A stretch of DNA of 63,377 bases, filler included, from Phoronis australis (lineage: Eukaryota > Animalia > Phoronida): NCBI GenBank assembly GCA_002633005.1. It is 7 parts of 7 records of this genome, joined end to end, with 100 filler letters (N's around TTAATTAATTAA, not from the genome) between each part and the next. Parts side by side here need not be neighbours in the genome. Positions count along the whole stretch, not along the records: positions 59,998 to 63,377 come from NMRA01003055.1; 6 more parts are not named here. One strand, written 5' to 3'. The notes beneath the pieces were generated by a model. That model was not told the origin of the DNA and did no database searches. It was given only the letters and a program-made list of their open reading frames with translations. A program made the translations under genes and the position numbers. This document shows positions 34,288-63,377 of this stretch, in pieces (the stretch's first letter is position 1; each line of letters opens with the position of its first letter).

Positions 34288-34475
34288 GTGGGTTGATATA
34301 GTGCCGTGGACCCTGATTTAGAAAACCAGTCAATCACTGAATAACGTGCCCCTTCCTCAGTGGATGACACTTATTCTCTAAATAAGGGTCCACCATATCC
34401 GATCAGTGCCTAGACTTTAAACTAACAAACCAATTAATCAAGCAACATTCGTTGTCCATGACATTGAGATTTTAC

Positions 34476-36816: not shown

Positions 36817-37000
36817 CGGGTCTCTCCCAGGGATGGAACATGTAATAACAAAACGGGTCTTTCCAAGGGATACGGCATGTAACAATATAACGGGTTTCTC
36901 CAAGGGATGGGTCATGTAATAACACAACGGGTCTCTCCAATTGATGGGCACGTAATGGCACAACGCGGGGTCTCTCCAAGGGATGGGACATGTAATAACA
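36817..37000. repeat. ~37-bp minisatellite x5
   Basis: CGGGTCTCTCCAAGGGATGGGACATGTAATAACACAA consensus. Confidence 0.92.
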
Positions 37001-38047
37001 CGTTACCTATTGACAAAACTATCATTCAAACATTTTGACGTTTCTCAAAATATGTAATTTCTAATCCTAAAATTTGAAATGTATTTTAATTAAGTTATCA
37101 CTGAAAGTGACCCCTTAACCGCCTTCCACCTTAAGAACCCCAACCCATAGCCTAGAATCAGAATCACAATAAGGTTTATGTTGTGTTTTTTTACTGTTCT
37201 GAATAACCCTTTTTCTCTCCCTAGGCAAGCGATCCACAGAAGCGAGAACTTCGTGAAAGTTCTAGATCCCACAAAACTGCGTGAGATATCGTCATGTATT
37301 ACAAGCTACCAGTCTTGCGTGATATTTTGTAATTGCGTGTTCGCAAGATTCTTGCGGAACACACGACAGGTTGACCCAAATTTTCCAGTTTGGGACTGTT
37401 TCCGCCACGGCAGGACACACAATAAACTAGAATACGTCGTTACAGGCCCGGGAGTACCTATTGTAATAAGCTTTGGGCCTCCAGTGCTCTCGGGTAAATA
37501 TTGATTTAGACATTTTTAAACTGGTAACAAAAACTGTTCTGAGGGTTGCCAAATTCGTTTGCCATGGACAGGCCTACGTTTCACCATTTAAGAATACGAC
37601 AGACTTATCTAGTCTAAGTAAACGTGAAAGATCCACCAAATTTTTTAACCGTAATATAACTTCTTTTCTCAATGACACTATTAAAATAGTGTCACCGAGA
37701 GGGGGCAGAGGACACAACCCCGGAGCCCTTGTGAGTCAATTAATGGGGTCCGCCGGCGAAGTAAAAAGGAAACAAGAAAAACGACCGAATGAAAATGAAT
37801 TTTCTCAGGCCGGTTTGAGCCGTTCAGCTTCAGATGGACAAAAATGAGGCTTTCAGATTCAGAACTAGAAGCCAAAAGAGGATTCTCTCTTTCGTCATTT
37901 CCGACAATATGAAATTATTCTGCTGTCAGCAATGGCACAAAAATTGAGACATAATGTTATCCGCCATTGATAAATTATTCAACTTCCGTAATTTGCGGTC
38001 AAATGCCTACAGTTTTTCGATTAAAACGACTTTTTGAAAATTGCTTG

Positions 38048-38302
38048 TTAAAAATCTGCGGCTTTTAGGCTGACTGTTTCATGGAGATTATAATCACTAT
38101 CTATCACGAAATGTCCGCACCAAGCCATGTAACTGTTAGCAAAGGTGGTGGAGTACCTGAAGTGTTTTCGGAGGAGCAATCCAACAGAACTATGTCGACG
38201 GTGATAGTAACTATTGGCGTAATAACCAATAAGCCACCAGTACGGGTTCAGAGTAATTTTGATGCCGTAATACACAATGTAGAATGTCACCAAATCAGTC
38301 GC
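38048..38302 (-). CDS. Possible terminal exon of an unidentified gene
   Basis: Acceptor GATTTTCAG then 84 open codons ATDLVTFYIVYYGIKITLNPYWWLIGYYANSYYHRRH..AWCGHFVIDSDYNLHE..*; no family recognised. Confidence 0.3.
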   Translation of the reverse strand, partial: ATDLVTFYIVYYGIKITLNPYWWLIGYYANSYYHRRHSSVGLLLRKHFRYSTTFANSYMAWCGHFVIDSDYNLHETVSLKAADF

Positions 38303-40749: not shown

Positions 40750-43700
40750 GAGTCAATGTACCACCTGACCCACAACACATTGCAACAAAAAGTTTTGCAG
40801 TGGTTTTATGCACTGCTGTGTATCCTTATTGACAGGAAAAAGTCTACCAAAATCTGACCACCGGAAACGGGTTAAAACTGCGTCATTTCCAAGATGGCCG
40901 TCACGACGTTTCAAAATCACCAAAAATACATATAACTTCTTCAATAATTGAGATAGAGACATAATTTTTGGTTCTAGTCTATGGTTTTAAGGGGTGAGCA
41001 ACTCGCTGGTGTGGTTAAAACTAAGATATTTGTATTTGATATGAAATTCAAGATGGCGGCTAAAATTCAAAAACACTGAGAAATCACTGCTTTTCACTTC
41101 ATCAATTATAACGAAAATATGATTAGATATGACTGGTTTCTGATTGAATGATCTTAAAACATTTAGATTTGACTGATTTCTGACTGAACTACTTTAAAAT
41201 ATGAACATTGCATTAATATTTAATCCAAAGCATTGGCTTGCATAAAAGTAACAAAAAAAATTTCCAGTGTATGTTTGCGTGCCACTGGTTTTTATTTAAA
41301 GAAACACACAAGACAAGGAAACTAGAAGCCCAAGGCAAAATGTCAACATCTGTCTGGAGTGTCCCAAAATCAACCGCAATTGTGCAGATCATCGACAATC
41401 GTGAGAAGAAATCTGTGGCTGGTCTGAAAATGTTCCATACTGCTCAGTCAATGATCAAGGCAGATCGCACTCGGCCTTGGATGATCACTTGCCAGCTGTT
41501 GGAGAGGCCTTGCCAATATTTGCTGCAGCTGGACAGCACAACTACCTGAAATCTGCTTACCTCTACATACAAGAAATGGCTGATAAGGAGAGCAAACACC
41601 CAGATGTGTGTGCGAAGTTTCAAAAATGACTTTCGTATGATTCGGCGAACAAACCAGTTTTGGACAGGCCTCAGCTGTGATCTAGCCATTGAGAAAAATT
41701 ACTAAATGCGATCGCTAAAAGGCACAGGCGGCGTGACTCGTGGCAGTAAGATGACAGAGGAGCAGCAAGCATTGTGGACAATGTTGGTCGCCGTAACGTT
41801 AGAGGTGAAGATCACCTTGCAGGACTCCAATGACCTCACGTACTCAACAAGCGAACAACACAAACAGGCAACTGCTGCCAGAAATGAAAGATATGAATGC
41901 GACTTTGCAAAGATAAGCACAAAGCTGACCGCATTTTCACCCTTCTCCTCAGACCCTGCGCTACGTAATGTCATCAATGGTGTTGTCGCCAACGCAAACG
42001 CCAACGTGCATGGATGTCAATCTGTTGGGAACAAAATCACTGAGAGAATTGTTCGACAACCTGTGTTTTCTTTCTCTTTTAAGAGGACAGACAGAGAATG
42101 CCAAGACCCTGGGAAATGCAGCTACAGTCCAGGTTGGTCCTGACGGAACCACTGATCCTTGCTTACTCTTCCAGTCATCCCAGGTGGTATTCCGGTAAGA
42201 CGACTTGTTTCTGGAGGAAGTTGTGAGTTTTGAGCTCAGTCCACACCTACAGTCTCTCTATGAGGACAATTTGATCTTGAAGAAGGCTGACAGACCTCAA
42301 CTGGCTCAAACCGTTCATGACCGCTGTTCCAAGGCCCATGCTTTGGAGGAGCACCAAACTTCACACCTTCAGTACGTCTCCAGACTGAAAGGTATGCGCT
42401 TGATGGGGAATCTTTTCTGCACAAGCTCAAATGGAAAAAGAGATATACCTATGGAAAATTGTCGGAGCATGCGCTGACTTCACGGCAAAGCACTCTGAGG
42501 CAGCCACTGTCGTCTTTGATGTTTATGGTGCAGGTCCTTCGATAAAGGATAACACAGAGACGGAGACATACCAGCTGCTATCCGACTGTGAACTTCACCG
42601 GAGAAACGGACTTTGGTGGTTAAGAGAGATGAATTCCTATCCATTGGCAATAACAAGCAACAACTGATCGCCTTAATAAGTAAGCAGTTGCAGAAAGTGG
42701 GATGCACAACCGGTCAGGCTGAAGGGGACGCTGATGTGGTCATTGCAAAGACACCAGTAAACAGTATAATATGCATTCCACCACAGTAATTGGCAAGGAC
42801 ACTGACTTGTTGATGCTTATGCTTCATTACTGTGAGGTTGACGGGAAATCATTATTTTTCAGATCTAGCGACCAGTCATGAAACAATCTTAAAATATACG
42901 GCATAAATTGGATGAGGCGTGTGCTCAGGATTAAATTGTGTACCCAGCTACTATTCCTACCCTCCTTCACAGGATACAATGCAAAGTCTCGTGTATATGG
43001 CGTTGGAAAGACTTCAGTCTCTCAGAAACTCGTGAAAGATGACCAAGTCCTCCAGTCATGCACATTCACTACGAAAGGTGTAATCCCCGCTGAGAGAAAC
43101 TAGGCAGCCAAGCGATGGTGGCAATGCGTGGTGGAGAGAGCACGTGTTCTCTGGTTTGCCGTGCATTACAACATATTCACAAAGAAGCTTGCTGCTGCTA
43201 AGTCTTTCGCTACTCCCGAACGTCTTCCACCAACGGAATCATGCAGTCACCAGGTTTCATTGTCTCGAGTGTACTACCAGGCCATGGTTTGGATGGAGAT
43301 GGCAAATGACCAGGATCCTTTAGACTGAGGCTGGAGTCTTGAAGACAATCAACTCGTACACATCATAACTGCCATGAATGCTGCACCAGACACTCCTCTA
43401 GATGATACACTGCAACTGTACTACAGCTGGTAGCATGCCTGGTGCAGTTGCAGAAAGAATGGGCTTTCATGTACATCTATATGTAGATTGTGCCTAGCGA
43501 CATGTTGTGACAATCCACTAAATCTAATTTCTGAGGAACGTGAAGACAGAGATGAGGGTTGACCTGAGGCAGTATGCATACGTGAAATGAACTTAACATT
43601 CTTGGATGAAAATGTAACCTACTCGTTCATGCGTCATGTCGACGAATGAATACTTTATAAACACCTCTTGTTCAGTCATTTTGTTACTGACAGATGCCTT

Positions 43701-44226: not shown

Positions 44227-44321
44227 CGATATGACGGTGTGCAAGCCGCTGAGGCTACGAGAGCACCAGTTCTATCAAAATCTCCCGAAGGACCTACAGG
44301 AGTTTGCACCCATTTATAAAG
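44227..44321 (+). CDS. IP6K: Inositol hexakisphosphate kinase, first visible exon (5' truncated by contig start)
   Basis: DMTVCKPLRLREHQFYQNLPKDLQEFAPIYK(G); matches the IP6K TVCKPL..RE..FY..LP.....F.P.YKG segment; G|GTTAGA donor. Confidence 0.92.
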
Positions 44322-44742
44322 GTTAGATGCAACAGCTTGTTCTCTTCTGATGTTTCTTAAAGTGAGACTTTCATGTCTGATGTCTGCTGTTTGAATGTAA
44401 ATAAAATGTCTGAGACATAGACAGTAAAAATATGTACTTCAAAATCTGCAGTGACTTATTCCACGATTTATAAGACAGTCTAACATTGGAGCTTGAGGTA
44501 CCAAAGTTTTCTATTAATCGTGATTAATTTAACATGACTCTCCTTGAGTTGTAAATTGCTGAAAGTGATAATGAAACGCTAGGGGTGGCCTTCAGTAACA
44601 CATGCTTGGCAATAATGTAGTGGGACAAACTTTGCGAAATTGAAATATGACGTTGTATCCGGTGGCTGACCTCTCATCATTTTCCATGTTAAATTAATGT
44701 GTCCTCATCTGAGTGTGCTGTAGAGGTGCTTTCTTTCTTCAG

Positions 44743-44953
44743 GTGCTATAGAAGTTAACTTCAAGGAAGACCGGGATGGTTATGTCACCTTCTTGGGCTA
44801 CCCCACGGACCACCATGGTACTAAGCGAGCACGGGCAGAGCTAGAGACGCGCCGCGACTCTTGTGGTGAAGCGGGCGGCTCTGATACAGACACTGACTCG
44901 CAAGATTCGTTGTCCTCAGCACTCCCCGAGACTTCAGATGAAGAAGCCTTCAG
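44743..44953 (+). CDS. IP6K: IP6K exon (211 nt)
   Basis: AIEVNFKEDRDGYVTFLGYP..EEAF(R); TTTCTTCAG acceptor, AG|GTCAGT donor. Confidence 0.9.
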
Positions 44954-45670
44954 GTCAGTTAACCCCAGTATGTTATGTTCATCCTTGTGGCCTTCAGGTC
45001 CATGGTTTTGTAAGCAACGGACTCTAGTGCACAGAGTAGTGTCTTTGAGGTCATTATTATAGTACACTATATCCAAAAATGTTTTCACACTTTGGTACAC
45101 GGGCATGGTAAACAAACGAAGAGCGAAAATTGAACACGCAATGCTACTGGAAACTGGAAAACATCATGGATGCGCAAAGACAACTGATATTCTTCTCAAG
45201 GTAACAAACAATGCATTTTGATTCCCTCTTTATGAATTTATATCAGCATTCTTTTCCTAACCTAATATACAGTTCAGTTATTGTCATTTGAAGTGTGAGG
45301 ATATCTCTGGACACCCTGTATTTACGGTAAAATGTCTTGATTTTGAGCACTAAAAATAACTATTTTCTTAATAATTAAGAGAACGAGTGATGTCTGTGAC
45401 CTTAGAAAAATTGAAGCCTTCGCTCATGTTTTATAAATGTCATCTGGCTAGCTTCAGTGTTCTTAGTTCAATCATGAATTTTCCCACAGCTTGTCTTGAT
45501 GGCAGCTAAATGATTTTTTTCGAGAGGCTTAGTTTTCATTCAAGTGAACACCCTAGGCTTTAAACTTCAGGAACTCAAAAATATCAGGGGTTGGGCATTA
45601 AGCAGTATACAGCAGCTCATGGGCATTCTAAAGGGAATTTGCTAAATATGCAGGGGTGAGGTGGTTGAAC

Positions 45671-45859
45671 GGAGAACTACCAGCTGAGCTGTCTGCCTCA
45701 AGTGAACGATAGCTGAGCCGACAGCTCACACCAAGGCAAGAACAACTGACTGAACTACCGGCTAGTTCACTAAGTTGCTTTCATGTTGTCACGCCGTGGT
45801 GTGAGCTGTTTGCTCGGCTACTGTCTACTTGAGGCAGACAGCACAACTCTTAGCTCTCC
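45671..45859. mobile_element. Palindromic MITE in IP6K intron
   Basis: Arms GCTGTCTGCCTCAAGT..ACAGCTCACACCA and TGGTGTGAGCTGT..ACTTGAGGCAGACAGC are reverse complements. Confidence 0.8.
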
Positions 45860-45965
45860 CAGTCTGCTGTGGCTCTAACACTGGCAGATACAGCAGTCGT
45901 ACTATTCGTGTCATTTCGACCGTTATAGCGTGTCATCGCAAAGTATTGTTTGTAAACCGTTGCAG

Positions 45966-46123
45966 GTTGCGTATGCGAAGTAGCGGTAGTATTGAAATAA
46001 ATCACACGGAGACTGAAGAGCAAGAGGGTACCTCGGACACCACCACCTGGAGTGCGCTCTGCCACAAACGGCAGTTGGAGAAGATGATTCAGGATAGTGC
46101 CAAGGCCAAGCACAAAACCAAGA
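45966..46123 (+). CDS. IP6K: IP6K exon (158 nt)
   Basis: LRMRSSGSIEI..TWSALCHKRQLEKMIQDSAKAKHKTK(K); WS..CHK.QL motif; TTGCAG acceptor, A|GTGAGT donor. Confidence 0.9.
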
Positions 46124-48370
46124 GTGAGTAAAACGAGCGCATGCAGTGGCATGTGTTGTTGTTCTGTCCGATTTGTCTGTCCTCCCGCAGGTGGCGTGAG
46201 TTGTTACTCCTTTTCTTTAGTATGATGTAAAATTATTATGGTAGCACTGTGGGATTCTGGGAAGTAATAAAATGAGTTAAAGTAGCAGCTGTAAAATCAC
46301 CGTCAGGAAAACTAACTTGATTTGGACCACTTCGCCTCTTGAGGTTGGTGTCATAGTGTCTCTTGGAAAGAACTGACAGCTTGTCATTGTTTGAGACTAG
46401 GATCTACAATTTGGCTTGTAATTGCATGTCGTATTATGGGTCGGGCATGTTCTTGAGCAATAAAAAACTGCCAGTTTTTTTTTTTGTTTCGAAATCTAGA
46501 ACTCGTTTCTCGTTTGAGCTAGGAACACGTTTTATAGCTGTAAGTGGGCTAACTCACCTGCGTTAGCCTCCGCATAGTGTTGTTGTGTTCTCGGAGGGAA
46601 TGTCAATAGCCATCGAATGTCGTCACACCTCATGAAGAGAATGTGACAAGTAATCAATATCTGACTCATTCAGCTGTCATCTCATCTGCCGTGTTACTGT
46701 TATTCTGAAGGTACTCGTCACGGTTTGTGGCCGTGTGCCCGCATTGAACACCCTCATACCATATTGTTTGTTAGTGAGTAAAATTCACAAAATTCATTAG
46801 TATATAAACAGTAGACAAAAGTAATCGACAAAATACCATTTTCCCGTCATGACGGATAATTCTGTTAACAGCAAAAATGACTAGTAATAACTATTAGGGC
46901 GTCAAAATTCTATTAGCGAATGTGCAATTCCGCCATATTTGAATTTGCTGCCACAATTGCATTATGGGAAATGAATGCCTCTATCGCTTGACGACCAATT
47001 GTGTACAGTGTTGCTGGGTGTTGTTGTAACGAATATTTAACAAAGAAGCGATCAATAAAGTTATTTTATTTGAATTCTTATCATAAAATTAATATTAAAC
47101 GAATAACTAGTGCAGAAAACATGCAACTGTATTTTATTATAGAAATGTTTTGGAAATGAATAAAGTCACCATTGCCGCACTCCACCTCCGTCGACTGTGA
47201 CTGTGTTCGACCGGGTGACATTATACTCATAATCAGCTGCAATATTCTCTTCCGTATAGAAACTCTCACGCTGTTGCTAGGCATACATGCTATCCCAGAA
47301 TGCAATAGAGAGGAACTGGTGTGGGGCATGGGCATTGAGATTTGCACATTCACTGTAAATATTGGCTTAACCTCCTCACTAACTTTCCTGTTAATTACCC
47401 TTCATTCTCAAACATTAGGGGAGACAACTCCAATGCTGATTTTGGCCTCTGCCCAGCCATCATGACAAAGAATCCTGGGTCATTTTGTCTGATTACTTTT
47501 GGTTTATACCAAATATAACTGTAAAATGGATCAGGTTATTCCTGCAGTTTTGAAAACCAGAAATCTTTGGTTATCAAATTTCCATTTTGCGTGAGACTTG
47601 TTATGGCCAGTACATTGATAAAAATGACACACCTGCTGAAGTGTCTCCTTTTCCCTCCAATCACGGGACTGTTGTAATAACAGTAATTGTGACATTGTTT
47701 TATCGAATTTGATTCATTGGGAAGGAGGTTTACCTGGACTAAAGTGTAGGTGAATGGTACTATTATCACACTGACCATAGATTGTCAGGATTGAAACTAG
47801 AGTTCTGACATACATATTTGCTATGTAGACTCTGTTAATACGTTTTTGGCTCCTTTGTCTCACAAATCGTCTTGATTTCCTTAAGAACTGTCTGCTATTT
47901 CTGAGGTGTAGTGCTCCCTCCCATAAATTTGATCTCTCTTCGCTATGTTCAGTGTATTTAGAAAGGTAAAGAAATTCGTCATAAGTAATCTAGCTTTACA
48001 GAAGTTATTAGTGAAAACCTGGAACACAAGAAGGAAAACAACAATAGCATGTTTCATTTGAAAATTCGTAAGTGAGGGCTGAAATGTTGAAGAGCCGGCC
48101 GTTCGCTGAAACTCGTTGAAGTTCTTCCTGAACACTGAAATCACTTCTAAACTGAGTAAGAAATTAGTGAAACTGTTTTTAAAGCGGCTTATGATCAAAA
48201 TGATAAGTTTGTTGTTTGACAGCAATCAATACCTTTAAATTAAGTCATCAAAGTTCCGCCGTTTCTTTTATGTTATGGCGTAGAATTCTCTCTTCTCAAT
48301 GTCTTTGCTCTTCGTTTGCGGAGGTCGAAAAACACATTGTGTGATCGATGTAGTTTTGAAATGCACAACT

Positions 48371-48423
48371 GCTAACACACATCTGAGCGTAGTCAATGCT
48401 AACACACATCTGAGCGTAGTCAA
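48371..48423. repeat. 27-bp tandem duplication
   Basis: GCTAACACACATCTGAGCGTAGTCAA twice. Confidence 0.9.
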
Positions 48424-50127
48424 ACACAGATACGACGTTTTACTGCACCTTGCTCAGCATTGCAACTTTCTGTGTGTTACAGTTGAATTATATTCACTTA
48501 GAATGTCCAACTGATGTTAATGCAGACCTGTGTACCATACGCAAAAAATGCGGATTCGTACGGATATCAAGTCTCCAGTACGCAAGTACACACCGCCAGG
48601 CAAAAATACGCAAATTCAGCAAATTCAAAATAGATTATTAATTCGCTTGCTTCTTGCAGATTTGTAGTCTAAACAGACGAGGAAGGAGATTTTAAAGTTA
48701 GAAATGAAAAAAAGATATCGTAAAAGCATTATTTTAGTTAAAAAGTTGAGCTACAAACTCGGAAAACTTCCTTGTTTCATTCTCGAAATAGCCTGATAAT
48801 CGGCAAATCGCGAGGACTCTTCGATCGGCATGTGTTTCACAGGCCTAACCTATAAGCAACGACTTCTGTGATTTGTGGATTGCTTACTTCGTCTAATTCT
48901 GGCTTTTTACGGCTAAATACGTACTGTTGACAAAGTGGCAAAGCACGTATGGTCGCATGTTCCGAGCTGTCAAGAAAGTAGATTCAGAAAGAAGGGAACA
49001 TCTGTTTTTGCAACGTTATTCCGAAGAATGACAATGTCTTGTCCAAGGGACCGTGGAATTTATACTGCAAGTTGTTTAGCGTATTTTTTGCGGACATGGT
49101 GACTGCACTGACCTCATAGCGTGTTGAGCTGACGATAATACTCGACTCTCGAGCCACAGTCGAGCCTCGAGGTCTCAAGGAGTCAAGCCTTGACTCAAGG
49201 TCTTTAGATATGCAATATGGTGGTACGTGATCACAGACACTTGCAATGAATAATTATTCAAAACTTTTGTGAATGGTTAAGAAAATATCGATGCAAAACA
49301 TTGTCCAGTGCAGATTCATCAACACATTTTTGCAGATATGTTGTGTTATGAAATGAGGTGTACATTATTCATGTTCAGTAAGGACATTTGATTAACAGGA
49401 CCTTTTCACTATGCGCGTTGTCTCTCAACTAAACAACTTAAGTTATTCCGAAAATTGGTGATCAATTCACTACGCGTGTTTTAGAAAGTGTTTGAGAGGC
49501 AAGCAAGTAGGAAAAGAACCTATACGCGTACCCAGGGGGTTGAATGAATGTCAAAACCGAAAGTCCGAGGAAACAAGTCCTCTAAAGAGGCAAAAATTCG
49601 GCGCGAAAGGTCTGAACGCTAAGCAAAGCCCCTTCTTTTTTTAGTCGGTGAGATAGTGAAAGTAAATTTGGTCTGTCCGTGAGAATCTGCGAATTTACTG
49701 GAAAATCTGCAAATCTGGCGTTCGGAGTACTCCAATGCAGTTTGGGTGGTACACAGGTCTGTTAATGTAAAGTGGTGATTAGAGCAGCAGCAGTTTGGCT
49801 GATGCCCCACGGATACACAGCATTGTGGGTAAATACCGTAGAGTCCGATGTGTTGTGGTACTTTGGGACGTGGCTGTTAGTACGTTTCGAAAGGCGAGTT
49901 TGTTGTGAGTTTGTCGATATCCTGCTGGGACACTTATTAAATGGCTAGTGTCCCTCGCAGCCTTCTGGTGCACACTAGCAAAATTCTTTGGTGAGGCTGG
50001 AGTAATGAATTGACGAAAAAGATTCCGTTAACACGATTTCTGACCAATAGCTTTTTTGGAAGAATCTTGCTTTATGTCACACACATGTACTACGGCTCAT
50101 TAGCTAACCTCCCCTTTATACATGCAG

Positions 50128-50303
50128 AGTTCATCCTGCTTGAGAACGTGACCAGCCAGTTCCAGTGTCCGTGTATACTGGACATAAAAGTGGGCACTCG
50201 CCAGCACGGAGATGACCAGCCGCAGGACAAGATACAGAGAAAGATGTTACGCTGTGCCAACACTACATCCTGTACACTCGGCCTTAGGCTGGGTGGGATG
50301 CAG
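50128..50303 (+). CDS. IP6K: IP6K exon with PxxxDxKxG motif (176 nt)
   Basis: FILLENVTSQFQCPCILDIKVGTRQHGDD..TTSCTLGLRLGGMQ; CATGCAG acceptor, CAG|GTACTG donor. Confidence 0.96.
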
Positions 50304-50759
50304 GTACTGTCTCACACTTTGCACACCGCTTTTGTTTGGCCTCACTAAAGGATTGTTTTCAACTGCAGAATTGATCGATAAAATCGTGTCCCCAATGTCT
50401 CTTTGAAGAAAAGCATGTGACCTTCGAAGTAAAAGATGGGCACTGGTATCCGCAGGAAATGACATTTCAAAATATGACTAATTATAGTGCTTAGTATCAA
50501 AAAAGCGTACTAAATAATATTCTCTTTTTGACTGTCCTCCAACCTTCTGTGTGTTTTTTCCCTCCCAAAAAGCTGATTTCCACCTGGTTTTCAACAACAT
50601 TTCAAAACCGTAGTATACCCTTTGTCAACTGCCTCCTCTAGTGTACATTGGACAATGTCAAAAATCTCCGTGCGTGTGGACGAGCCCTGACTAAAATACA
50701 TCTTTATGACTATTACAGGTTTGCTAGCTGTAGCTCTAACTTCTAATTTTGTTCTTCAG

Positions 50760-51233
50760 GTTTACCAAGTGCCTTCAGGGAAATTTCTTACTCGTGACAA
50801 GTATTGGGGTCGTAGAATCAAGGGGGACGATTTCATGGAAGCATTAAACAATTTTTTCTACAACGGCATCTGTTACCGCACTGACGTGTTGGAGCCAATG
50901 ATAGAGAGGCTGACGGCATTTAAGGAAATGGTGGAAAGACAGCATACATTCCGGTTTTATTCCAGTTCACTGCTAGTCATGTACGATGGGAAATCTACAG
51001 GGGAGACAATGAGTGAGACAAATTCTGTGCCTTGTGAAAATGCATCAAGTGGACTGCCGAGTACATCGCAAAGAATGGTGGATGTGCGCATGATTGACTT
51101 TGAGCACAGCACATTCCAGGGCTTTTGTGAAGGGGCCACGGTGCACCCTGGCCCCGATCAAGGCTACCTGTTCGGGCTAAATAACCTCATTAAAGCACTG
51201 CAAGATATCAGACGTAAGAATACAGCGTCATAG
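50760..51233 (+). CDS. IP6K: IP6K last exon
   Basis: VYQ..DKYWGR..FRFYSSSLLVMYDG..VDVRMIDFEHST..GPDQGYLFGLNNLI..*; SSLL and IDF motifs. Confidence 0.96.
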   Translation, partial: VYQVPSGKFLTRDKYWGRRIKGDDFMEALNNFFYNGICYRTDVLEPMIERLTAFKEMVERQHTFRFYSSSLLVMYDGKSTGETMSETNSVPCENASSGLPSTSQRMVDVRMIDFEHSTFQGFCEGATVHPGPDQGYLFGLNNLIKALQDIRRKNTAS

Positions 51234-51975: not shown

Positions 51976-53713
51976 AGCCTACTGTATGTATCATGTCACA
52001 AAGCCAAAGTAAAATAGCGCCAGGGGAAATTAGTGACATTCGGCTGAAAAGATGCAGAGGAAAAATATGAATGTCAATTGAAACACCAATACATCTGGCA
52101 AATTTAAAAAATCTAAAACAGGGCACCCTGAAAAATAAATCGAATTAAGATGAAATTTATGAACGTCATACTTATCGGACTAAATCGATCTTCAGACGAG
52201 TTATGTGGAATTATATTTTGGCACGAGAAAAAAATAAAACATGCGACCCACTTTACAGACTTCTTAGCCTTCGATAAAAACTACCACACCTTTCTATTCA
52301 CTGAAACTCCTGAAGTAAACTCTGACTGTCACAGAGTGTAAATTAGTCGGTCTATTGCATAACTTTAAGAAGTAGTTCACTTCAGTTTCTTGGGAGACAA
52401 GTACGTAGAACTGTTACTATAATACCCTTCGTTTTTGCAACTTGCCGCGGCATTTGATCGAATAGCCGTTTATGCTGTTGTTAATTTCATTGAGATTAAG
52501 ATTTAGATTTTACTCAGACAGGGCTCACATGTTCTATGCTGTACCATTTCAGTTATTACAGTACTCAAAAATACGAGAAACGTGAACCTCGTTGTTTCTA
52601 GCTGGACCGGCGAACCACTTCGATAACTAACCCGCTATCGCATTATCGGCAAGAAACGCACGTGATTTTCCGAAATGTGCCTCAGCGCAGAGAACCTGCA
52701 ACCGTCGCGGCTGTCGTGTCGGTCGCAGCCTGAACGCTCTAGTCTTCTGGCGGACCCACCTGGTACATTGGGAGTTGAATTCCTTCCGTATGGGTAGCGC
52801 GTTCATCTACGCCTGAACGTATTTAATATCGCGTAAACTCGCAGTGGTTTGAGCTCTGGGGACTCCTGTTTGGGAAACTTGATATCAGTAGCTGACAATC
52901 GAGCATTGCACATGGGTGCCTCCTACTCCTCTGAGCTCGGCCTTATACTAGTGAATGTATGCAAGGGAGTGAATAAGAACCCGGACTGTGCAAATATTAG
53001 CATGGGCGGCGCAGCACTGAAAAAAGCAGAGGGCTATAGCCCCCCAGCCCGCTATGGTGTGACGCCCATATAAATTAGTAGGGGCCTACTCGCTTTGTAG
53101 ATGTGCGTAGGATGTCGCTCGTTTGTCTTTAGTTTATATGGTATATAGTTTCTCGGGTTTTAAACCGTGGACTTTTTCAGATTAGGTTTTTACATGCTTT
53201 CATTCGTTTTTCTTTATATATAGACCTACCAGGGTAGAGTTCAGTAGCCGTCTCGGAGCTAAAAAATTAGTCAACATCACGTGTTCTCATTTAAAATACA
53301 CGGCAATAGCTCACGTGATCTCTCGAAGTCTTGCTTTTTAAAGTGGTTCTCGTCTAGGTCTTCAGTAATCAACGGTACTATATAGTCACTGCCAAGGATT
53401 ATGAATTCTGGGTATAGGCCTACATCGAGTCCCTGTTAGATGGATATTTATCATAGCATCAGTTGTTTTATAATGGGTTAAAAAAGGAAAGCCCAAACAG
53501 GTTGAAAGCAGTCCTGAAATTGTCAGCTCACCACACCATTAACATATCAAATATTAAAAATAATTGCAGGCGGTCTGATACATGTTGTACCAGACGTCCG
53601 CAGGCCTCGCATGTGGGCCCATTGCACTGATCACCTGGAAATATTTTTATGCTTTATTAATATATGGTTAAAACCGACCTGAGGAGCTAGAAACCTGGCT
53701 CAAGGGTTTAGCA

Positions 53714-53790
53714 GTGTGACCTGGTGGGACTTGAACCCACGACCTCGAGTAAAGAAAGCGGGCACTTATCAACCAGGCCACACTGCCTCC
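53714..53790 (-). mobile_element. tRNA-derived SINE head
   Basis: Minus strand GTGGCCTGGTTGATAAG (A box) .. GGTTCAAGTCC (B box). Confidence 0.65.
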
Positions 53791-56289
53791 TCCATCAGTC
53801 AAACGGTTCTCCTCTTGTCATTTCTCATTGCATTAGTCCGAGTCGGATTAAAGAGCGTTTGTTTCGTCAAGTCACCGGCTTTGCTTTCAGCACTCCCTGC
53901 AAACCTGTTTGTAAAAGAATCATAAAAACAACGGATTCTGTTGTTTTGTTGCTGGTCAAGCAGGGCTCTCGCTCACTTGAGAGGAAAAGTGCCTCAGTAT
54001 AGGTCTCCTGAGGGGGGATTTTTCAGTCGAGAGGAGAAAATCCTTTACCGCCAATTCTACGCTTCTGTCGTTACCTCTCATTAGCTGCCTCAAAAACTTA
54101 CTGCAGAAGTGATTTTAACCGGCCTTGGCGGGATTCTTCATCACAAGCGGACTTTGAACTTCATGAGAGGAATTTCGCCTAATTTTTAAATATCCTTCAT
54201 TGGTGAAAGAGGCCTTCGTCCCCAAACCTGAAGCATCCAGTTCTCTGGAATCAGGAGTCGGTCCGATTCAGCAATCATCACCAAAGAGTTTTCGGTAGTA
54301 AAACCGGTACTGTTCCTTTAAGCCCGGCTGCAGCAGGGCAATTTTATATGTCTACCTTTAGTACACAGGGATGAACCTGCTATCGGGTAATCGGAGGTAA
54401 GCTGCGGTGCCAGGGTGTAATCTTTCCACCGCGACTCGAAGTATTTACATTTTTCGTCCTACTTCCGTGCGAACTCAAGATAAGGGCCTATAGCTGAAAT
54501 GTCAGGGTTATCAAGTACAAACCAAGATTAGACAGTCAAGCACGCGAAGCGTAATGTACTCTGGCAAGAATACGAAAAAAAAAAACGTATCTTCACTGGA
54601 CAAACGTAGGCCTAGCAGGCTGTGGAAACGATCCAACTTTCTGACGTAGATCAACTGCAAACGAACTTAACTTAATGAACAGATCTCAGTAGCTCTGGGC
54701 CCTCGGCGGGAGATGCGGAGTGACTTACTTGGATTCGTGCTAAAATGTCACTGCTGCGACTTCCAACGATTAGTCATGTGCATTACGGTATTATTTCAGT
54801 GACACAAAAACAATACGAATGTTTGTGCTTCGTAAATTATCATTTCTAAAAAGAACGCTTCAATCAAACATTAGAAATAAAAAGTTATATGCCTGGATGA
54901 CGTTTTAAAACAAATTACAAGGTATTGTCTGTTTAAAAGTTCTTGTGTTCAAAATTTACCCTAAGTTTCCATCGTTTTGTACTACCATAAATTTTTTCCG
55001 TCATCGCTGTGTTTCACAGAGAACCTCAGCTCTTTCAGTTTCGTGGACTCACAAGAAAACCAGCGTGATCACGCGTCTTCCTTAAAATATAGCGATATCT
55101 CGCAAATTTGGGAGTGCTTGCTTTTCTCGCAAGGAACTAGGTCTACGCAACGCACGCCTAATCCGAGTGCAGGAGCACGTTGAGGGCAGTCAAAAGTTAC
55201 CGTTTTTTGACAAATGGCGGGTATACAACAGTCTACAGCAGCTCTAATACTTAGATAATTAAAAAATCTTAAGCCCGTCTTAGTTTCTCTTAAACGAGTT
55301 GGGTGACCATTTGAATTCAGATTACTTATCTTTTTATAAATAAGAAATGATTGTTGACTCCGGCATTTATAGATTACATTTGTCCCAGGGCAGCCTAGGC
55401 AAACCCAGAATCTGTTATGTTACAAAACAGCAAGGCTAAAAATAGAACTTAAATGAGATTATCTCCACCAACGAACACAGGTTAGTGGGTCGAGGTCATG
55501 CAAATATTTTAAAGGGTGGATGCGTCAACAATTAAAGGTGAATGTCTTATAGGGCATTCTCCTTGTTTGAAACATTCCAGTGATCACTGAGTTATCTAGA
55601 GGTAAAATATGCGTGAAACCGAATGGACAGAGTTCACGTTGGACTTTACCTATGGACAAGAGTAAAACATTTGTTTTGAAAATTGTGAAATGTAAAATCA
55701 AATTACCCCACCAGCTTCCCCAATTATATCTCCTACAATTGTCCCGGTTGACAAAAGGTCGACAACCTTGTAACATGTTTCACAGACGCACACCTGGTCT
55801 CTATCTTCGCTTCCTTCAGCCTTCCACACCTAAACTCCGAATGCTTCATGTTAAATAATACCAACATTATTGTTGTCCAAATTACAAAGACCTAGAGTCA
55901 TAAATCTTCACCTGAGTTGGTGGAATTATTTATAAAAAAACAAAAGGAAGCACTTTGTTTAACATGTTTATTTTTCAATAAATTGATTCCTTACACCAAC
56001 AACCTACAGGAAAAAACTGAGTACATAATAATGTTTTAAACATAAAATCCAACACTAACTGGCAAGGAATGTCTTTAAGACTATACAATCAACAGCCTCA
56101 GGCTCAACCAAAGGCTGTTTCTCTATCTCAAAATACCAACATAACAGAGATCATTTACTTGTTACACAGAGAACCCAATTTTCTGTTGTAGCAGAAAATA
56201 AGCAGAATTTATAATGAATCCGACTACCTTGGTTGAGTTAAAAGTTTGGAATGGAATTCACATATTTCAATAATACCAGTAGATGGCGT

Positions 56290-56758: not shown

Positions 56759-57034
56759 GTAAGTATGACTCCTTTTCAGCAGTAACAACTGATCCTCGTC
56801 TACCACGTAGGAAAAGTTTAAGCCACCCGTTGGCATTTTTCAAATATGATGATTAATGTTATCAAATGCATTCACATTATCTACAAATTTGTACTTGCGT
56901 TTCCAATTTCTCGAACCACTTGAAATATTGTGTCAACCAAAGAACTTTTAAACACGATAAATGCGTACACTACATTAGTCACAAATCATAAATTATGTTT
57001 AGTAGATCGTATAGGCTTCCTCTTTATGTTTTAG

Positions 57035-57166
57035 TACCATTCCGTGACTCCAAGTTGACCATGTTGCTGCAGAATGCTCTTGGCGGCAACAGCAAGACCA
57101 TCATGATAGCCGCCATAAGTCCTGCAGCTGAGAACTACGACCAGACGCTTTCAACACTACGCTATG
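57035..57166 (+). CDS. KIF28: Kinesin-3 motor domain C-terminal exon
   Basis: [43 protein letters not shown](A); G|GTATGT donor. Confidence 0.93.
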
Positions 57167-57911
57167 GTATGTAGATGAACCAGTCCAGAAAATTTACTTT
57201 ATGTTCGTCATATGATAAAAGGTGCCTCTCAAGATCAATTTAAAGAGATGGAAAGGAAAATGCAAGTTGGCGAAATAAAGATGACTTATTATAATGGCAA
57301 ATACTGGTAAAGTATACAGTAGGAACAATAATACAAAAATAGACAAATAGAAATCTCTGACATCAATGAAAAGTGACACGAGAGTTTTGCAAAACAGTTC
57401 ATTTTCTATGCGCCGTGATCTTAGGTTCATTTTACGGCAATTCCCGTTCGAATGCGTACACAACGTTCTTAAGTAAATCCCAGAAGCTAGCATTGTGCTA
57501 TCTGCATATTCCTAAAATCCCGTGATGGGTGGGATCATTTGTTTGTTGTCCTAAACTGTGGGTTAGGATGCCCAGTACTGCCAACTAGCTCTTTATACTA
57601 AAGATTTTCACGTTAATATCTATAACATTACCTTAAGACCTTACTGAACAGTACGATCCAGATTTTTCAAAGGACAGCAAATAACAAAACCCATTGCATA
57701 AGCTAAAATACTCTTAAGTGAATAAATGTGATCTCAGCACTATTTCCAAAAGCCATTGTAAGTGCATCTTTCTTACAGAGACCGAGTTGTGATTTCAAGA
57801 ACATAGGTACATGTACATGTTTTGTATTACCTTCTTCGAGGTATAGAAGTCTCTGTTTGATATCAATATTCTTTGCTTTAGTTCTTGATAGTTTTTTTTT
57901 TGCGTTTCAAG

Positions 57912-58070
57912 CTGACCGGGCCAAGTCTATCGTTACAAAGGCTAAGGTGAACGAGTCGGAGACGGACAAGCTAATAAAAGATTTAATAGCAGAGAAAGAA
58001 AGACTGTTGAAAGAGCTAAGTGAAGCTAAAACTGGGACGAACAAAAGTGCGAAATGGATCAACACCGCCG
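57912..58070 (+). CDS. KIF28: Kinesin-3 neck exon
   Basis: DRAKSIVTKAKVNESETDKLIKDLIAEKERLLKEL..; TTTCAAG acceptor, G|GTAATA donor. Confidence 0.9.
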
Positions 58071-58945
58071 GTAATACATTAACAAAGTTGGCAGCTGGTT
58101 TCATTGTCACAGTGTCTTCAAGCTGGAAAAATCGCAGTTTCAGGAAAATATATGAAGCTACCAGTGCAGGAGTAAGGTTTTGCGACCCCTAAGTTATCAA
58201 AAGAATGGAGCGTCCAAGAGATTGAGCCGCCCATGGCAGTCTCAATTTTTTCATCCACAACTTTCCCCTGTCGCCACAGTGTCTTATCTAGACGCCCTGG
58301 TCGACACTAGCGGTCCTCACAATATCCGAATCCTCCGTGGTGTCACAAGTTATCACCTCTGGTCAACGAATTTCGAGGGTCCTGTTGGCACGAGGCAGGG
58401 GTTCCAATTTTGTGAGGGACCCTACGCTATACCCTTTTAGCTTAATTGTTAACCTGACATTGCAAATGACAAAGTAGCACGCTCTGATACAGTAAAGGAA
58501 ATTCAGACGTGCGTGTTGATATTCGTTTTTCACTGTGTGCATCAAAACTAGTAAGTTACGGTGAGATGTTACAATCGAGAAATTTGCATAATATTCTGCT
58601 TAGTTAAGCTGAGAACCTAAAAATGCTGTTATGCATTAAGATATCGTGTAGTATAATCCCCTTGTTTTATTCGTAAACCTAGAAGCAATGATCTCCTTTC
58701 TGGGTTATCTGTACTATTTCATGGAATAAAGATTTTTGACTGACTGACGCTGAAATGCGTTCATGCGTTTTACCAGCAATAATTATCATACAACCTTTTT
58801 GCAGTTTATCCTCATACGTTATTTGTTTGTGTTTTGCAAAGTGAAATTTTGTGTTGGAAAGTGTCTAAATTATGTCGAGAATAATGCGACGAGTGAATGA
58901 ACATAGTTTCGTTAAAAACAAACTAATTCTGATTTTGGTTTTCAG

Positions 58946-59061
58946 AGCTTGCATTATTGAAAGCAGAAAAAGAACGAGAAATAGCCAGACATAAAGAAGA
59001 AATCGCAAACATGAACAAAACCTGGGAGATCAGACTTCAAGAAGCGAGAGCGGAAATGGAG
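58946..59061 (+). CDS. KIF28: Kinesin-3 coiled-coil exon
   Basis: LALLKAEKEREIARHKEEIANMNKTWEIRLQEARAEME; TWE.RL motif; TTTTCAG acceptor, GAG|GTGATT donor. Confidence 0.88.
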
Positions 59062-59505
59062 GTGATTGGGTCGGGCTCAAGTTATGATTTACGAATGTGA
59101 AAAGTTTATTTTTAAAACGAGAATCTTAATTAGGAAACCACGGTTGCTAGATTTGTGCTGGCTTCCCACGTTCCATAAATTAAGATTCTCACAAGACACT
59201 TGCGGGACAAATATTTGGTTTATAAAACAAACGTTTTAACGCTTGCTGGATTTTGCGTGGTCTTGAGTAATTTCGTTTTTCTCTCTAGAAACTTGCTACA
59301 AGGAACGAACCCTTGTATATGGCAAATTTGATTTTTTGAACCTCTGGTTCTTCAAACACGTCTGCAATATTTCTTCTGTCAAAGTTAGTTGTTACAGCTA
59401 TATGGTCATACAAAACCTATTGTATGTACACGACTTTCTGTTGGTTTGTGGTGTGAATTTTAGGCAAAAGTAGTTGATTGTCCTAATCCTGATTTTTGGT
59501 TACAG

Positions 59506-59626
59506 AAGTCTAAAGCAGACGACATTAAGGAGTCTAAACAAAAGGGCAGCATACCTCACTTGTGGAACCTCAACGAAGATCCGTCATTGTTGGGCAAAAT
59601 CATGCACTTCATAAAGGAAGAAGAGG
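59506..59626 (+). CDS. KIF28: Kinesin-3 pre-FHA exon
   Basis: KSKADDIKESKQKGSIPHLWNLNEDPSLLGKIMHFIKEEE; PHLxNLNEDP is the kinesin-3 signature; subfamily call from recall. Confidence 0.9.
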
Positions 59627-59897
59627 GTACCGTCATGTGAAATTTCTTTTCGAGCAACTTGTATCTTATGTCTTTGTAGTAGACTAGATTTTGTCCTGGC
59701 AAAAGCTGGGTGCTAAACTTCTCTACACCACACGTTTTGCTTAGTTGAGACTGCGTTCTGTAAACTCACTCGCGAGAAAAAGCAAGATCGTGCGAGATAA
59801 GCCATGCACCATAAGCGAAGCATGTTATCACATTTAGCTTTAGTAGCATGCGTCTACCGGGTGAAACATTGCCTGGGTTGTTAATTGTTTTCAATAT

Positions 59898-61730: not shown

Positions 61731-62149
61731 AGAGACCGTCTTTTTGCTTGGCATGTGCCCCCCGAAAAGCAAATTCAGTAATCCCGTCATGCCTTGTAAA
61801 CCAGGAAGTAAAAGTTTTGCGGCTGCGCACATTAAACATGTGAAATGTATTCATTTGTTTCAAAACACTGTCAAGAGTTGTTCTTAACTGTAGTGTTGTA
61901 ATTATTTATTTCATCAGTTTCTGTACTCGTGAGTAATTGTGAATTTTGTTCCCCTTCTCTTTTCAAAATGTTGATTGGCTATAATTTGGGGTTGGTTGAG
62001 TAAAATTTCAACGCTTGAATGAATCGGTGTATGACTAGTCCGTGAATAACATTCAATGAAGCTTGTGGGCTTGGTACCTTTGCGTAGTGTGTTTTCATCA
62101 ATGTTCATTGTTATACACGGAAAAGGTTTAGGGAGGTTTTATATGGTTG

Positions 62150-62916
62150 CANCTGGTCTGCTTCGTCTCTGGTCAGGGTTTCGACTGCAGTGGGTGGAGC
62201 ATGGCTCTCAAATGCCCCCAAGAAGAGTGGTGACATCCTATTTGGTCGTGGGCTCTACCATTGTTTGGTACCAATCAAAGTTTTGCAGGGACCGAGACTT
62301 GAACTATACAATATTAGCAGTTGGCATTGTAGTAATACTAGCCGAGATTACCCGACCCAGGAATCGAACCAGCGACCCCCATAAAACCGGCAAGCGTGCT
62401 AACCATTCAGCTAATGGGCAATTGCCCGTTAGCGAGTGGCTAACAGAGGCTCATATATGATTTACCGGAAGCACGTCTACAACATCCCCCCTTTCTTACG
62501 GAACGGGCATGCCACCAGGAAGGTGAACACCAGGATGCCATACGTAGGTCATCAACGTCCCTTGGTACTTTTACCACCACAACACAGAGGTGAACACAAG
62601 GTGTTCTCTCATACACAGGTCCTTGACTCCTGCAACCTTCCATGCGCGCCGTCCCGAGGTCCGCAGGTACTTGTTCGCAGTGCTTCATTGGTAGATCATC
62701 CATTTGCAGACTACACCATTTGTAGGAATAGCCGAGATTACCAGACCTGGGAATCGAATCAGCGACCCCCATAAAACTGGCAAGCGTGCTAACCATTCAG
62801 CTAATAGACAATTGCCCGTTAGCGAATGGCTAACAGAGGCTCATATGTGATTCACCGGAAGCACGTCTACAACAACACCATGATAGCCGAGCTTTCAAAC
62901 CATTCAGTTAAGAAGC
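62150..62916 (-). mobile_element. tRNA-derived SINE split by the TRIM insertion
   Basis: A box TAACTGAATGG (62900-62910) and B box AGTTCAAGTCT (62295-62305) lie either side of the TRIM; 3' boundary approximate. Confidence 0.55.
62328..62874 (-). mobile_element. TRIM (miniature LTR retrotransposon) with tRNA-like Pol III promoter in both LTRs (Helenus-type)
   Basis: LTRs 62721-62874 and 62328-62484 (TGT..ACA, about 11 substitutions + one 3-bp indel); PBS TGGTGTAGTCTGCA 2 nt after the 5' LTR; PPT AAGAAAGGGGGA abutting the 3' LTR; A box TAGCTGAATGG and B box GGTTCGATTCC inside the LTR. Confidence 0.88.
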
Positions 62917-63185
62917 AGTTACCACTTGGAAAAATTTAGGGCTCGACTTTACGTGGCTGTGTGTCACACCCGCAACGGGCCAGAAGTCACGTGCCACGTC
63001 AAGTGTGAAGGAAATATCGGGAAGAACTCGCGTGAAGTTTGGAGATAATTTACGACGGTCAAGCAAAATAGTCTGAGTCAAACTTTACTCATTGTTCTTG
63101 CGCAGTCAGACCAACTTTGTTCCACTCACTAGTCTGAAGGTCTTTTCAAGCGTATTGACTTTAATACCTTATTCAATTTAGGTCA

Positions 63186-63377
63186 GTCTAAATCACGTTT
63201 TTGCATTGGGTCTAAATCGCCTTTTGCATTGGGTCTAAATCACCTTTTGCATTGGGTCTAAATCACCTTTTTCATTGGGTCTAAATCATCTTTTGCATTG
63301 GGTATAAATCACCTTTTGCATTGGGTCTAAATCACCTTTTTCATTGGGTCTAAATCACCTTTTGCATTGGGTATAAA
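63186..63377. repeat. 23-bp minisatellite (about 8 copies, runs off window)
   Basis: GGTCTAAATCACCTTTTGCATTG consensus. Confidence 0.96.

What the first reader, a model, noticed from the sequence alone, without database searches (positions are those of the whole stretch)
62328..62874. Miniature LTR retrotransposon whose LTRs contain a tRNA-like Pol III promoter
Seen (minus strand): two ~155-bp TGT..ACA LTRs about 92% identical around a 236-bp interior with no retroelement ORF. The PBS TGGTGTAGTCTGCA is a 12/14 match to the complement of the tRNA-Ser 3' end as I recall it, and a PPT abuts the 3' LTR. The LTR carries an A box (62403-62413) and B box (62360-62370), preceded by a GTTAGC-N5-GCTAAC hairpin and a GGGCAATTGCCC palindrome. 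Established: plant Cassandra TRIMs carry 5S-derived promoters, and tRNA-bearing TRIMs (Helenus) have been reported, so the class is known but rare; this family may be new. Inference: a SINE/LTR hybrid transcribed by Pol III and mobilised by a Gypsy-type partner. Caveat: the 4-bp flanks GCAT and ACAC differ by two transitions, so the TSD is unconfirmed.
Basis: partly seen in the sequence, partly recalled or inferred. Interest (0 to 1): 0.8.

Follow-up and report, generated by a model that had tools for sequence, protein, structure and literature searches.

The report
Helenus mini-retrotransposon with mirrored promoter hairpin
This is a worn copy of a repeated, gene-less jumping element whose two end repeats each carry tRNA-type promoter boxes, a kind described in 2024 as Helenus, and each promoter is preceded by its own mirror image, a predicted hairpin that would help RNA polymerase III stop in the second repeat rather than the first.

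Summary
Real, and a new family of a known kind. A 547-bp minus-strand TRIM: LTRs of 154 and 157 bp (143/154 identical), 236-bp non-coding interior, PBS, PPT, and A/B boxes in each LTR. Raw data show a multi-copy family with sharp ends and solo LTRs; most sister copies carry a perfect 14-nt tRNA-Ser PBS; two expressed solo LTRs appear to have 4-bp TSDs (flank pairing inferred). It meets every testable feature of Helenus (Kojima 2024); nearest by eye is Helenus-2_PiNo. This copy's own TSD is uninformative, and its 5' B box and PBS are damaged. By eye, 53 of 76 published non-insect animal Helenus LTRs share this arm, which the paper's text does not mention. Likely role: making the 3' LTR, not the 5' LTR, end a Pol III transcript (untested). 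Host phylum and helper element unresolved. The scan has noted Helenus-type elements in other genomes before.

The parts
62328..62874 (-). Whole element, 547 bp, LTR-interior-LTR
   Evidence: depth step at both ends
62721..62874 (-). 5' LTR, 154 bp, TGT..ACA
   Evidence: solo copies span 62721-62873 (X1 records 4, 5)
62328..62484 (-). 3' LTR, 157 bp (3-bp insertion private to this copy near its end)
62485..62720 (-). Interior, 236 bp, no Pfam match, no TTT on the sense strand
62705..62718 (-). Primer-binding site for the tRNA-Ser 3' end, 2 nt after the 5' LTR; 12/14 here, 14/14 in most sister copies
62485..62497 (-). Polypurine tract, 13 purines abutting the 3' LTR
   Evidence: sequence
62740..62810 (-). 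tRNA-like segment of the 5' LTR (limits set from box positions; acceptor stem broken)
   Evidence: not called by ARAGORN or Rfam
62350..62420 (-). tRNA-like segment of the 3' LTR
62793..62803 (-). A box, 5' LTR; no variant at 12% or more in the family
62750..62760 (-). B box, 5' LTR; damaged at 62759 in this copy
62403..62413 (-). A box, 3' LTR
62360..62370 (-). B box, 3' LTR, canonical
62787..62835 (-). Inverted repeat in the 5' LTR: U3 arm (62835-62812) mirrors the tRNA-like 5' half through the A box; centre between 62812 and 62811
   Evidence: z -4.7; 4 of 2000 shuffles
62397..62445 (-).
   Evidence: z -2.7; 0 of 2000 shuffles
62773..62776 (-). T4 run, 5' LTR (candidate weak Pol III terminator, would have to be read through)
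   Evidence: no variant at 12% or more
62383..62386 (-). T4 run, 3' LTR (candidate terminator, 5-10 nt after the hairpin)
62875..62878 (+). Flank at the 5' LTR end (ACAC); 2 of 4 match to the other flank
62324..62327 (+). Flank at the 3' LTR end (GCAT)

Best explanation
This is an old, damaged copy of a multi-copy, gene-less LTR retrotransposon of the Helenus type, which is likely transcribed by RNA polymerase III from tRNA-type boxes in its 5' LTR and likely copied and inserted by the enzymes of an autonomous Gypsy element. Shown: anatomy, multi-copy family with fixed ends, solo LTRs, tRNA-Ser PBS in sister copies, A/B boxes, inverted repeat, single T4 per LTR. Inferred steps: (1) Pol III starts near the centre of the inverted repeat in the 5' LTR, so the RNA lacks the U3 arm there and reads through the weak T4; (2) it crosses the T-run-free interior; (3) in the 3' LTR the RNA includes the arm, the long hairpin forms 5-10 nt before the same T4 and promotes release, leaving a terminal repeat R of about 39 nt on an RNA of about 430 nt; (4) tRNA-Ser primes minus-strand synthesis, the PPT primes the plus strand, and a Gypsy integrase inserts it with a 4-bp TSD. 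My odds: Helenus-type TRIM 0.93; Pol III transcription 0.75; Gypsy helper 0.75; arm-assisted termination at this T4 0.3.
For: Family and ends: 1243 (X1) and 824 (X2) contigs laid at 85%; loose ends at both termini with agreement about 0.4; solo LTR contigs of 1544, 1807, 484 and 390 nt with unlike flanks on both sides. PBS: at the two positions where this copy departs from tRNA-Ser, 94% and 81% of X1 depth and 29 of 29 and 24 of 24 X7 reads carry the pairing base. TSD: GGGC ends the left flank (138 reads) and begins the right flank (83 reads) in X7; CTTC does so for a second locus (22 reads left in X7; 49, 60, 47 reads right in X7, X5, X6); neither extends to 5 bp; two such matches among 9 pairings p about 0.0005. 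Animal Helenus make 4-bp TSDs and share PBS types only with Gypsy (PMC10886601). Pol III: A+B 0 of 20000 shuffles; no TTT in the 386 nt between the two T4 runs despite 26% T (15 of 5000 base shuffles, 103 of 5000 dinucleotide shuffles) while the other strand has five T runs; A box and T4 unvaried in the family. Hairpin: -30 kcal/mol with the arm against -4.5 from the centre on; a hairpin 0-10 nt before a T4 enhances Pol III termination in human cells and in yeast in vitro (passages of 10.1101/2020.09.11.294140 and PMC9278858). RNA: in X8 the unit assembles as one 416-nt LTR-interior-LTR loop with no flank; interior reads lean to the element's sense strand in X6 and X7; one expressed copy begins exactly at the hairpin centre, 62421 (23 and 17 reads).
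Against: No discrete RNA start or end was seen in three RNA runs (table 6 empty), and 75-78% of reads run on into unrelated sequence, i.e. most RNA comes from copies inside host transcripts. X8 is only guessed to be RNA, and tandem arrays or collapsed copies give the same loop. X5 shows no strand bias in the PPT-side half of the interior. If transcription starts only 8 nt upstream of the centre, a -11 to -14 kcal/mol structure already forms beside the 5' T4, which weakens the asymmetry. The T4 in this position is not general: among the 53 arm-bearing published LTRs I saw a mid-head T4 in two (Helenus-6_SaGl, Helenus-1_CVi), a downstream run of 4 or more T in 16, and none downstream in the 17 chordate ones (by eye). 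The TTT test was chosen after looking; any one homotrimer is absent in 194 of 5000 shuffles. This copy has no exact TSD (p 0.03 at 7% divergence; likelihood about equal to unrelated flanks), and pairing of left and right flanks for the two solo LTRs is inferred, not read on one molecule. No helper element was found; no genome is held.
Confidence: 0.75

Rival explanations
1. Same element, but the mirrored arm protects rather than terminates: in the 3' LTR part of the RNA it pairs with the tRNA-like 5' half and keeps RNase P from cutting there, or acts as a switch that frees R for the first strand transfer (the arm can refold into its own 6-bp hairpin).
For: The arm is far more general than the mid-head T4 (53 of 76 against about 2 of 53, by eye); it is centred at the tRNA +1 position in nearly all of them; many arm-less families keep a clean acceptor stem (Fig. 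S1 text); the short hairpin inside the arm recurs in fish, bivalve and nemertean LTRs and keeps its stem in this family while its loop varies (62826, 62828).
Against: The head here does not fold as a cloverleaf even without the arm, so there may be nothing to shield; arm-less families lean to a downstream T run (20 of 23 against 16 of 53, by eye, related families not independent), which points to a link with termination.
Confidence: 0.3
2. The element is transcribed by Pol II (own U3 promoter or host read-through) and the tRNA-like boxes are a passive relic of an old SINE insertion; the arm is a fold-back accident kept by chance.
For: Most RNA reads come from copies embedded in other transcripts; no sharp RNA ends. 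Kojima notes Pol III activity of Helenus is not validated.
Against: A box invariant and B box kept in the family; sense strand free of TTT; arms with unlike sequence still pair across phyla, often through G-U pairs on the sense strand (for example all 24 positions paired with 6 G-U in Helenus-2_MyGa, by eye).
Confidence: 0.17
3. A local tandem duplication of a tRNA-derived SINE that mimics an LTR element.
For: No TSD at this site; family depth is much higher over the A-box core than at the LTR ends.
Against: Interior is itself multi-copy with PBS and PPT, ends are fixed TGT..ACA, solo units have apparent 4-bp TSDs and no tail.
Confidence: 0.02
4. A retrozyme-like element whose RNA ends are made by a self-cleaving ribozyme in each LTR, as earlier notes of this scan proposed for other tRNA-headed TRIMs.
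For: Loop-shaped unit contig in X8; structured LTRs.
Against: Rfam to E 10 gives no ribozyme over 62200-63000; no hammerhead core motifs on either strand; only about 20 nt lie between the head and the LTR end.
Confidence: 0.04

Closest known systems
Helenus (TRIMp3), Kojima 2024, PMC10886601 (main text parts 1-5 of 6, supplement parts 1, 5, 6, 7, 9, 10, 11 of 11, two string searches of the whole supplement; figures not seen)
   Same: Under 1 kb, two LTRs with a tRNA-like segment and A/B boxes, PBS and PPT, no coding capacity, solo LTRs, apparent 4-bp TSD as in animal families; sizes inside the published range.
   Different: No published family has this PBS (0 hits for two spellings); T4 inside the head rather than after it; host phylum not resolved, so a range extension beyond the six listed phyla is open.
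Helenus-2_PiNo and Helenus-3_PiNo (Pinna nobilis)
   Same: By eye: similar PBS followed by the same 8 bases, a shared 9-mer in the interior, a short hairpin plus palindrome before the head, and roughly 70-75% likeness over the head; 3 of 6 probes chosen after inspection hit Helenus-2_PiNo.
   Different: LTR 121 against 154 bp, interior 178 against 236 bp and otherwise unlike; the paper assigns its primer to tRNA-Glu; no computed alignment was made.
Mytilid Helenus-2 families (MyGa, MoPh, LimFor)
   Same: tRNA-Ser primer class, LTR 141-156 bp, interior 226-268 bp, same first 10 bases as Helenus-2_MyGa, long U3 arm pairing with the head.
   Different: Different serine isoacceptor (TGA type in the paper), T run after the head in two of three.
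Cassandra (plant TRIM with 5S promoter; PMC7215508 passages; Kalendar 2008 as cited by Kojima, itself not held)
   Same: Pol III-type promoter in both LTRs; RNA starts in the 5' LTR and ends in the 3' LTR leaving a short R (18 bp as cited); self-complementary LTR folds are described.
   Different: 5S type-1 promoter, plants, transcription validated; the reported super-hairpin is between whole LTRs, not a U3 mirror of the promoter's first half.

Membership tests
Helenus (TRIMp3) | TRIM shorter than 1000 bp with two LTRs | tested here: met
   547 bp, LTRs 154/157 bp, 92.9% identical
Helenus (TRIMp3) | No coding capacity | tested here: met
   Longest frames 118 and 113 aa, no Pfam match at E 0.1
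Helenus (TRIMp3) | tRNA-like sequence in the LTR with conserved boxes (TRGCY..YGG and GGTTC per the paper) | tested here: met
   Both motifs present 43 nt apart; 0 of 20000 shuffles; family keeps them. No cloverleaf call by ARAGORN or Rfam, as for many Helenus heads
Helenus (TRIMp3) | PBS complementary to a tRNA 3' end just after the 5' LTR | tested here: met
   14/14 to human tRNA-Ser(AGA) in most sister copies, 12/14 here; the host's own tRNA-Ser could not be read
Helenus (TRIMp3) | PPT abutting the 3' LTR | tested here: met
   13 purines, 62497-62485
Helenus (TRIMp3) | Dispersed multi-copy family with fixed ends, solo LTRs | tested here: met
Animal Helenus | 4-bp TSD | tested here: inconclusive
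   This copy 2 of 4; two expressed solo LTRs show 4-bp matches with inferred flank pairing. Leans to met
Animal Helenus | PBS shared with an autonomous Gypsy of the same host | not testable with these tools
   No genome held; collection scans empty
TRIMp3 | Transcription by RNA polymerase III | tested here: inconclusive
   Sequence signs favour it; RNA-seq shows no sharp ends
tRNA-derived SINE | Head at the 5' end, LINE-like or simple-repeat tail, variable TSD | tested here: not met
   Head lies 64 bp inside a TGT..ACA unit with fixed ends and no tail
LTR retrozyme | Self-cleaving ribozyme in each LTR | tested here: not met
   No Rfam ribozyme at E 10, no hammerhead core; an undescribed ribozyme is not excluded
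Cassandra / Ajax | 5S rRNA-derived promoter | tested here: not met
   No 5S match; boxes are of the tRNA type

The most novel reading that the evidence does not exclude
The mirrored U3 arm is an overlooked, ancient control element of animal Helenus: it forms only in the 3' LTR part of the RNA and so lets an element with the same Pol III signals in both LTRs start in one and stop in the other. Because bivalve, nemertean, coelacanth, sturgeon and carp families share it at the same register, arm-bearing animal Helenus would be one old lineage rather than separate SINE captures, and this family, with its lone T4 beside the hairpin, is a clean test case.
Probability: 0.3. Interest if true: 0.7.

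Novelty: new member of a known kind. Interest (0 to 1): 0.42.

Why it matters
As an element it adds one more family to a group described in 2024 and is of modest interest. The arm is the part worth having: how a Pol III-driven LTR element avoids stopping in its first LTR yet stops in the second is unexplained for Helenus, and no Helenus transcript has been mapped according to the paper. A 70-nt LTR fragment with one hairpin and one T4 makes that question testable in a standard termination assay, and the shared arm is a character for testing single against multiple origins of animal Helenus.

Tried and rejected
No whole genome is held, so copy number, TSD statistics, host tRNA-Ser and helper element are open. 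No second copy in the 63-kb window at BLAST E 1. Scans of metagenome contigs and viral contigs found nothing. The look-up of sequencing runs listed no RNA holder; RNA runs came by species label. Host placement failed: the IP6K exon gives 27 near-length hits (best 47%) and 16 longer ones, with named hits at 33-44% from fish, bivalves, a tunicate and crinoids; the kinesin exon found no candidate; the Atlas gave no answer. An empty-site allele was not among the joints listed (15 of 49 shown). Summed contig depth was not used as copy number. Rfam's two weak hits (mir-367 E 2.1, ftsZ-DE E 5.3) are chance. A G-U bias between the arms is weak in this family (about 4 G-U against 2 C-A by hand; sense and antisense folds -29.9 against -17.2 for the 5' LTR but -30.6 against -29.0 for the 3' LTR), so it is not counted as support here. 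The count of arms in published LTRs is by eye on text, not computed; insect, fungal and plant families were not scored, and supplement parts 2-4 and 8 were only string-searched. The claim that the arm is not in print rests on the term search of the Helenus paper (0 hits for hairpin, palindrom, inverted) and paper searches; its figures and Repbase entries could not be seen.

Full report
Observation. The element lies on the minus strand at 62874-62328 exactly as described: 5' LTR 154 bp, interior 236 bp, 3' LTR 157 bp, TGT..ACA ends, 143 of 154 aligned bases identical, K2P distance 0.076. The PBS starts 2 nt after the 5' LTR; a 13-purine tract abuts the 3' LTR. The A box and B box lie 43 nt apart; this pair arose in 0 of 20000 dinucleotide shuffles of the LTR and once in the 63-kb window. 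ARAGORN and Rfam call no tRNA. The two open frames crossing the interior have no Pfam match. The window is animal DNA with spliced IP6K and kinesin exons; the element sits about 400 bp after a plus-strand splice donor at 61929-61930, so it is probably intronic and antisense (inferred from read depth arithmetic). The phylum was not resolved.

It is a family, not a local duplication. No genome is held, so I laid public runs. In DNA runs X1 and X2 (one sample, possibly the source of the window) 1243 and 824 contigs fit at 85%; depth is about 30 (X1) in both flanks and 10^3 to 10^5 inside, and loose ends gather at the two termini with unrelated flanks (agreement about 0.4). On the 5' LTR alone 930 X1 contigs fit, among them whole LTRs with unlike sequence on both sides in contigs of 1544, 1807, 484 and 390 nt, i.e. 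solo LTRs. At the two PBS positions where this copy departs from tRNA-Ser, 94% and 81% of X1 depth and all 29 and 24 covering X7 reads have the pairing base, giving 14 of 14 against the human tRNA-Ser(AGA) probe printed in PMC13478228 (one passage seen). The 5' B box of this copy is also hit at a base that 96% of family depth keeps. This copy is therefore an old, probably inactive member.

TSD. The flanks here match at 2 of 4; that is about as likely for a decayed TSD (0.018) as for unrelated flanks (0.023). Both LTRs share minority alleles (62828/62438 and a 2-bp insertion), which favours one insertion over a chimera. Two expressed solo LTRs help: in X7 the dominant left flank (138 reads) ends GGGC and the dominant right flank (83 reads) begins GGGC; a second locus has CTTC on the left (22 reads in X7, also in X5 and X6) and CTTC on the right (49, 60, 47 reads). 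Neither match extends to 5 bp. The pairing is inferred from dominance, since 151-nt reads cannot span an LTR; two matches among nine pairings would occur by chance about once in 2000. Only the best-supported loose ends were shown (24 of 532, 14 of 180).

Comparison with Helenus. I read parts 1-5 of 6 of PMC10886601 and 7 of 11 parts of its supplement. Every defining feature that could be tested is met, and animal families are reported with 4-bp TSDs and Gypsy-type PBSs. String searches of the whole supplement found no family with this PBS, A-box region or PPT. By eye the nearest are Helenus-2/3_PiNo and the mytilid Helenus-2 group. So: new family, known kind. The scan's own notes list 59 findings with these words in at least 16 genomes, none alike in sequence, and none on this family among the 7 and 4 notes returned for this genome.

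The short hairpin and the palindrome belong to one inverted repeat of about 50 nt (62397-62445; 62787-62835): the U3 arm is a reverse complement of the first 25 nt of the tRNA-like head, through the A box, centred one base before the predicted tRNA +1 (BLAST 80% over 50 nt; 0 and 4 of 2000 shuffles; fold z -2.7 and -4.7). Scoring the published LTRs by eye (11 positions from the centre through the start of the A box, at most 2 unpaired, G-U allowed, one bulge allowed in two carp families), 53 of 76 non-insect animal families have such an arm: chordates 17 of 18, bivalves 33 of 51, nemerteans 3 of 3, Lingula 0 of 3, ctenophore 0 of 1. The paper's text has no hit for hairpin, palindrom or inverted, and searches returned no other paper on it; figures and Repbase notes were not seen. 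A run of four or more T follows the head in 20 of 23 arm-less families but in 16 of 53 arm-bearing ones; the families are related, so the Fisher value overstates this.

Mechanism. The sense strand has one T4 per LTR and no TTT in the 386 nt between them (15 of 5000 base shuffles, 103 of 5000 dinucleotide shuffles; any homotrimer absent in 194 of 5000), as expected of a Pol III template. A box and T4 show no variant at 12% or more. An RNA starting at the hairpin centre folds only weakly before the 5' T4 (-4.5 kcal/mol), whereas in the 3' LTR the arm gives -30 kcal/mol ending 5-10 nt before the T4. Published work shows that T4 alone is a poor Pol III terminator and that a hairpin 0-10 nt upstream improves it (passages of 10.1101/2020.09.11.294140; PMC9278858, which also calls the strict hairpin model controversial). 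I therefore propose start near the centre, read-through of the first T4, release at the second, R of about 39 nt, tRNA-Ser priming and Gypsy integration. Against: a start 8 nt further upstream already allows a -11 to -14 kcal/mol structure beside the first T4; most arm-bearing relatives lack a T4 at this place; and shielding from RNase P or a strand-transfer switch would explain the arm's generality as well.

RNA data. In X5, X6 and X7 (about a fifth of each run read) 532, 495 and 471 reads fit; 75-78% run on into unrelated sequence, and no common start or end was found. The libraries appear stranded with the first mate opposite the RNA (9 and 14 reads all ending at the plus-strand donor). On that reading interior reads lean to the element's sense strand near the PBS (X7 17-24 against 2-5; X6 about 2.5 to 1; X5 even near the PPT, about 2 to 1 near the PBS), while LTR reads are dominated by antisense solo copies in host transcripts. 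In X8 (RNA by guess) the unit is one 416-nt loop without flanks, which fits an element-length RNA with R over 30 nt but also tandem copies. One expressed copy starts exactly at the hairpin centre, a weak hint at the RNA start. None of this shows Pol III.

Verdict. Observation confirmed, interpretation supported, novelty modest: a new Helenus family. The added value is the mirrored arm, apparently shared by most non-insect animal Helenus and not found described, with a cheap decisive test. Interest 0.42; novel case probability 0.3, interest 0.7 if true.

Noticed in passing
window 62899-62909 (minus) and 62296-62304 (minus): The flanks carry an A-box-like 11-mer 25-35 bp before the element and a B-box-like 9-mer 24 bp after it, about 55 nt apart if the element is removed. 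The upstream match to the LTR A box was reached by 4 of 2000 shuffles (chosen after looking). The element may have landed inside a decayed tRNA-derived sequence; the flanks are single-copy at 85% and the two solo-LTR flanks show no such boxes in 30 nt, so targeting is not supported.
   Followed up: partly
window 53640-53830 (minus): A separate tRNA-derived sequence with a canonical B box at 53737 and a degenerate A box, probably a SINE.
   Followed up: no
window 56992-59640 (+): Exons of a kinesin gene (Pfam Kinesin E 3e-19; weak Kinesin_assoc), likely kinesin-3; a further plus-strand exon appears to end at 61928 by RNA reads, so the element is likely in an intron of this or the next gene.
   Followed up: partly
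window 44228-51233 (+): Spliced inositol hexakisphosphate kinase gene; last exon only 33-47% identical to the best hits.
   Followed up: partly
window 63153-63377: Tandem array of 23-bp units running to the window end, preceded by a low-copy repeat at about 62990-63075.
   Followed up: no
window 62780-62840, run X1: Summed contig depth over the arm and A-box core (about 296000) is about ten times that at the LTR ends (about 30000-41000). It may be an assembly effect or a more abundant relative that shares only this core.
   Followed up: no
window 62753, run X7: 14 reads of one expressed copy join the PBS straight to the LTR with about 10 terminal LTR bases missing.
   Followed up: no
PMC10886601 Data S1, Helenus-2/3_PiNo: Their PBS, assigned to tRNA-Glu in the paper, resembles this family's tRNA-Ser PBS and is followed by the same bases; the primer assignment may deserve a second look.
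   Followed up: no
window 46800-46920 with 13808, 21347, 39513: A dispersed repeat of about 100 bp, 75-76% alike, four copies in the window.
   Followed up: no
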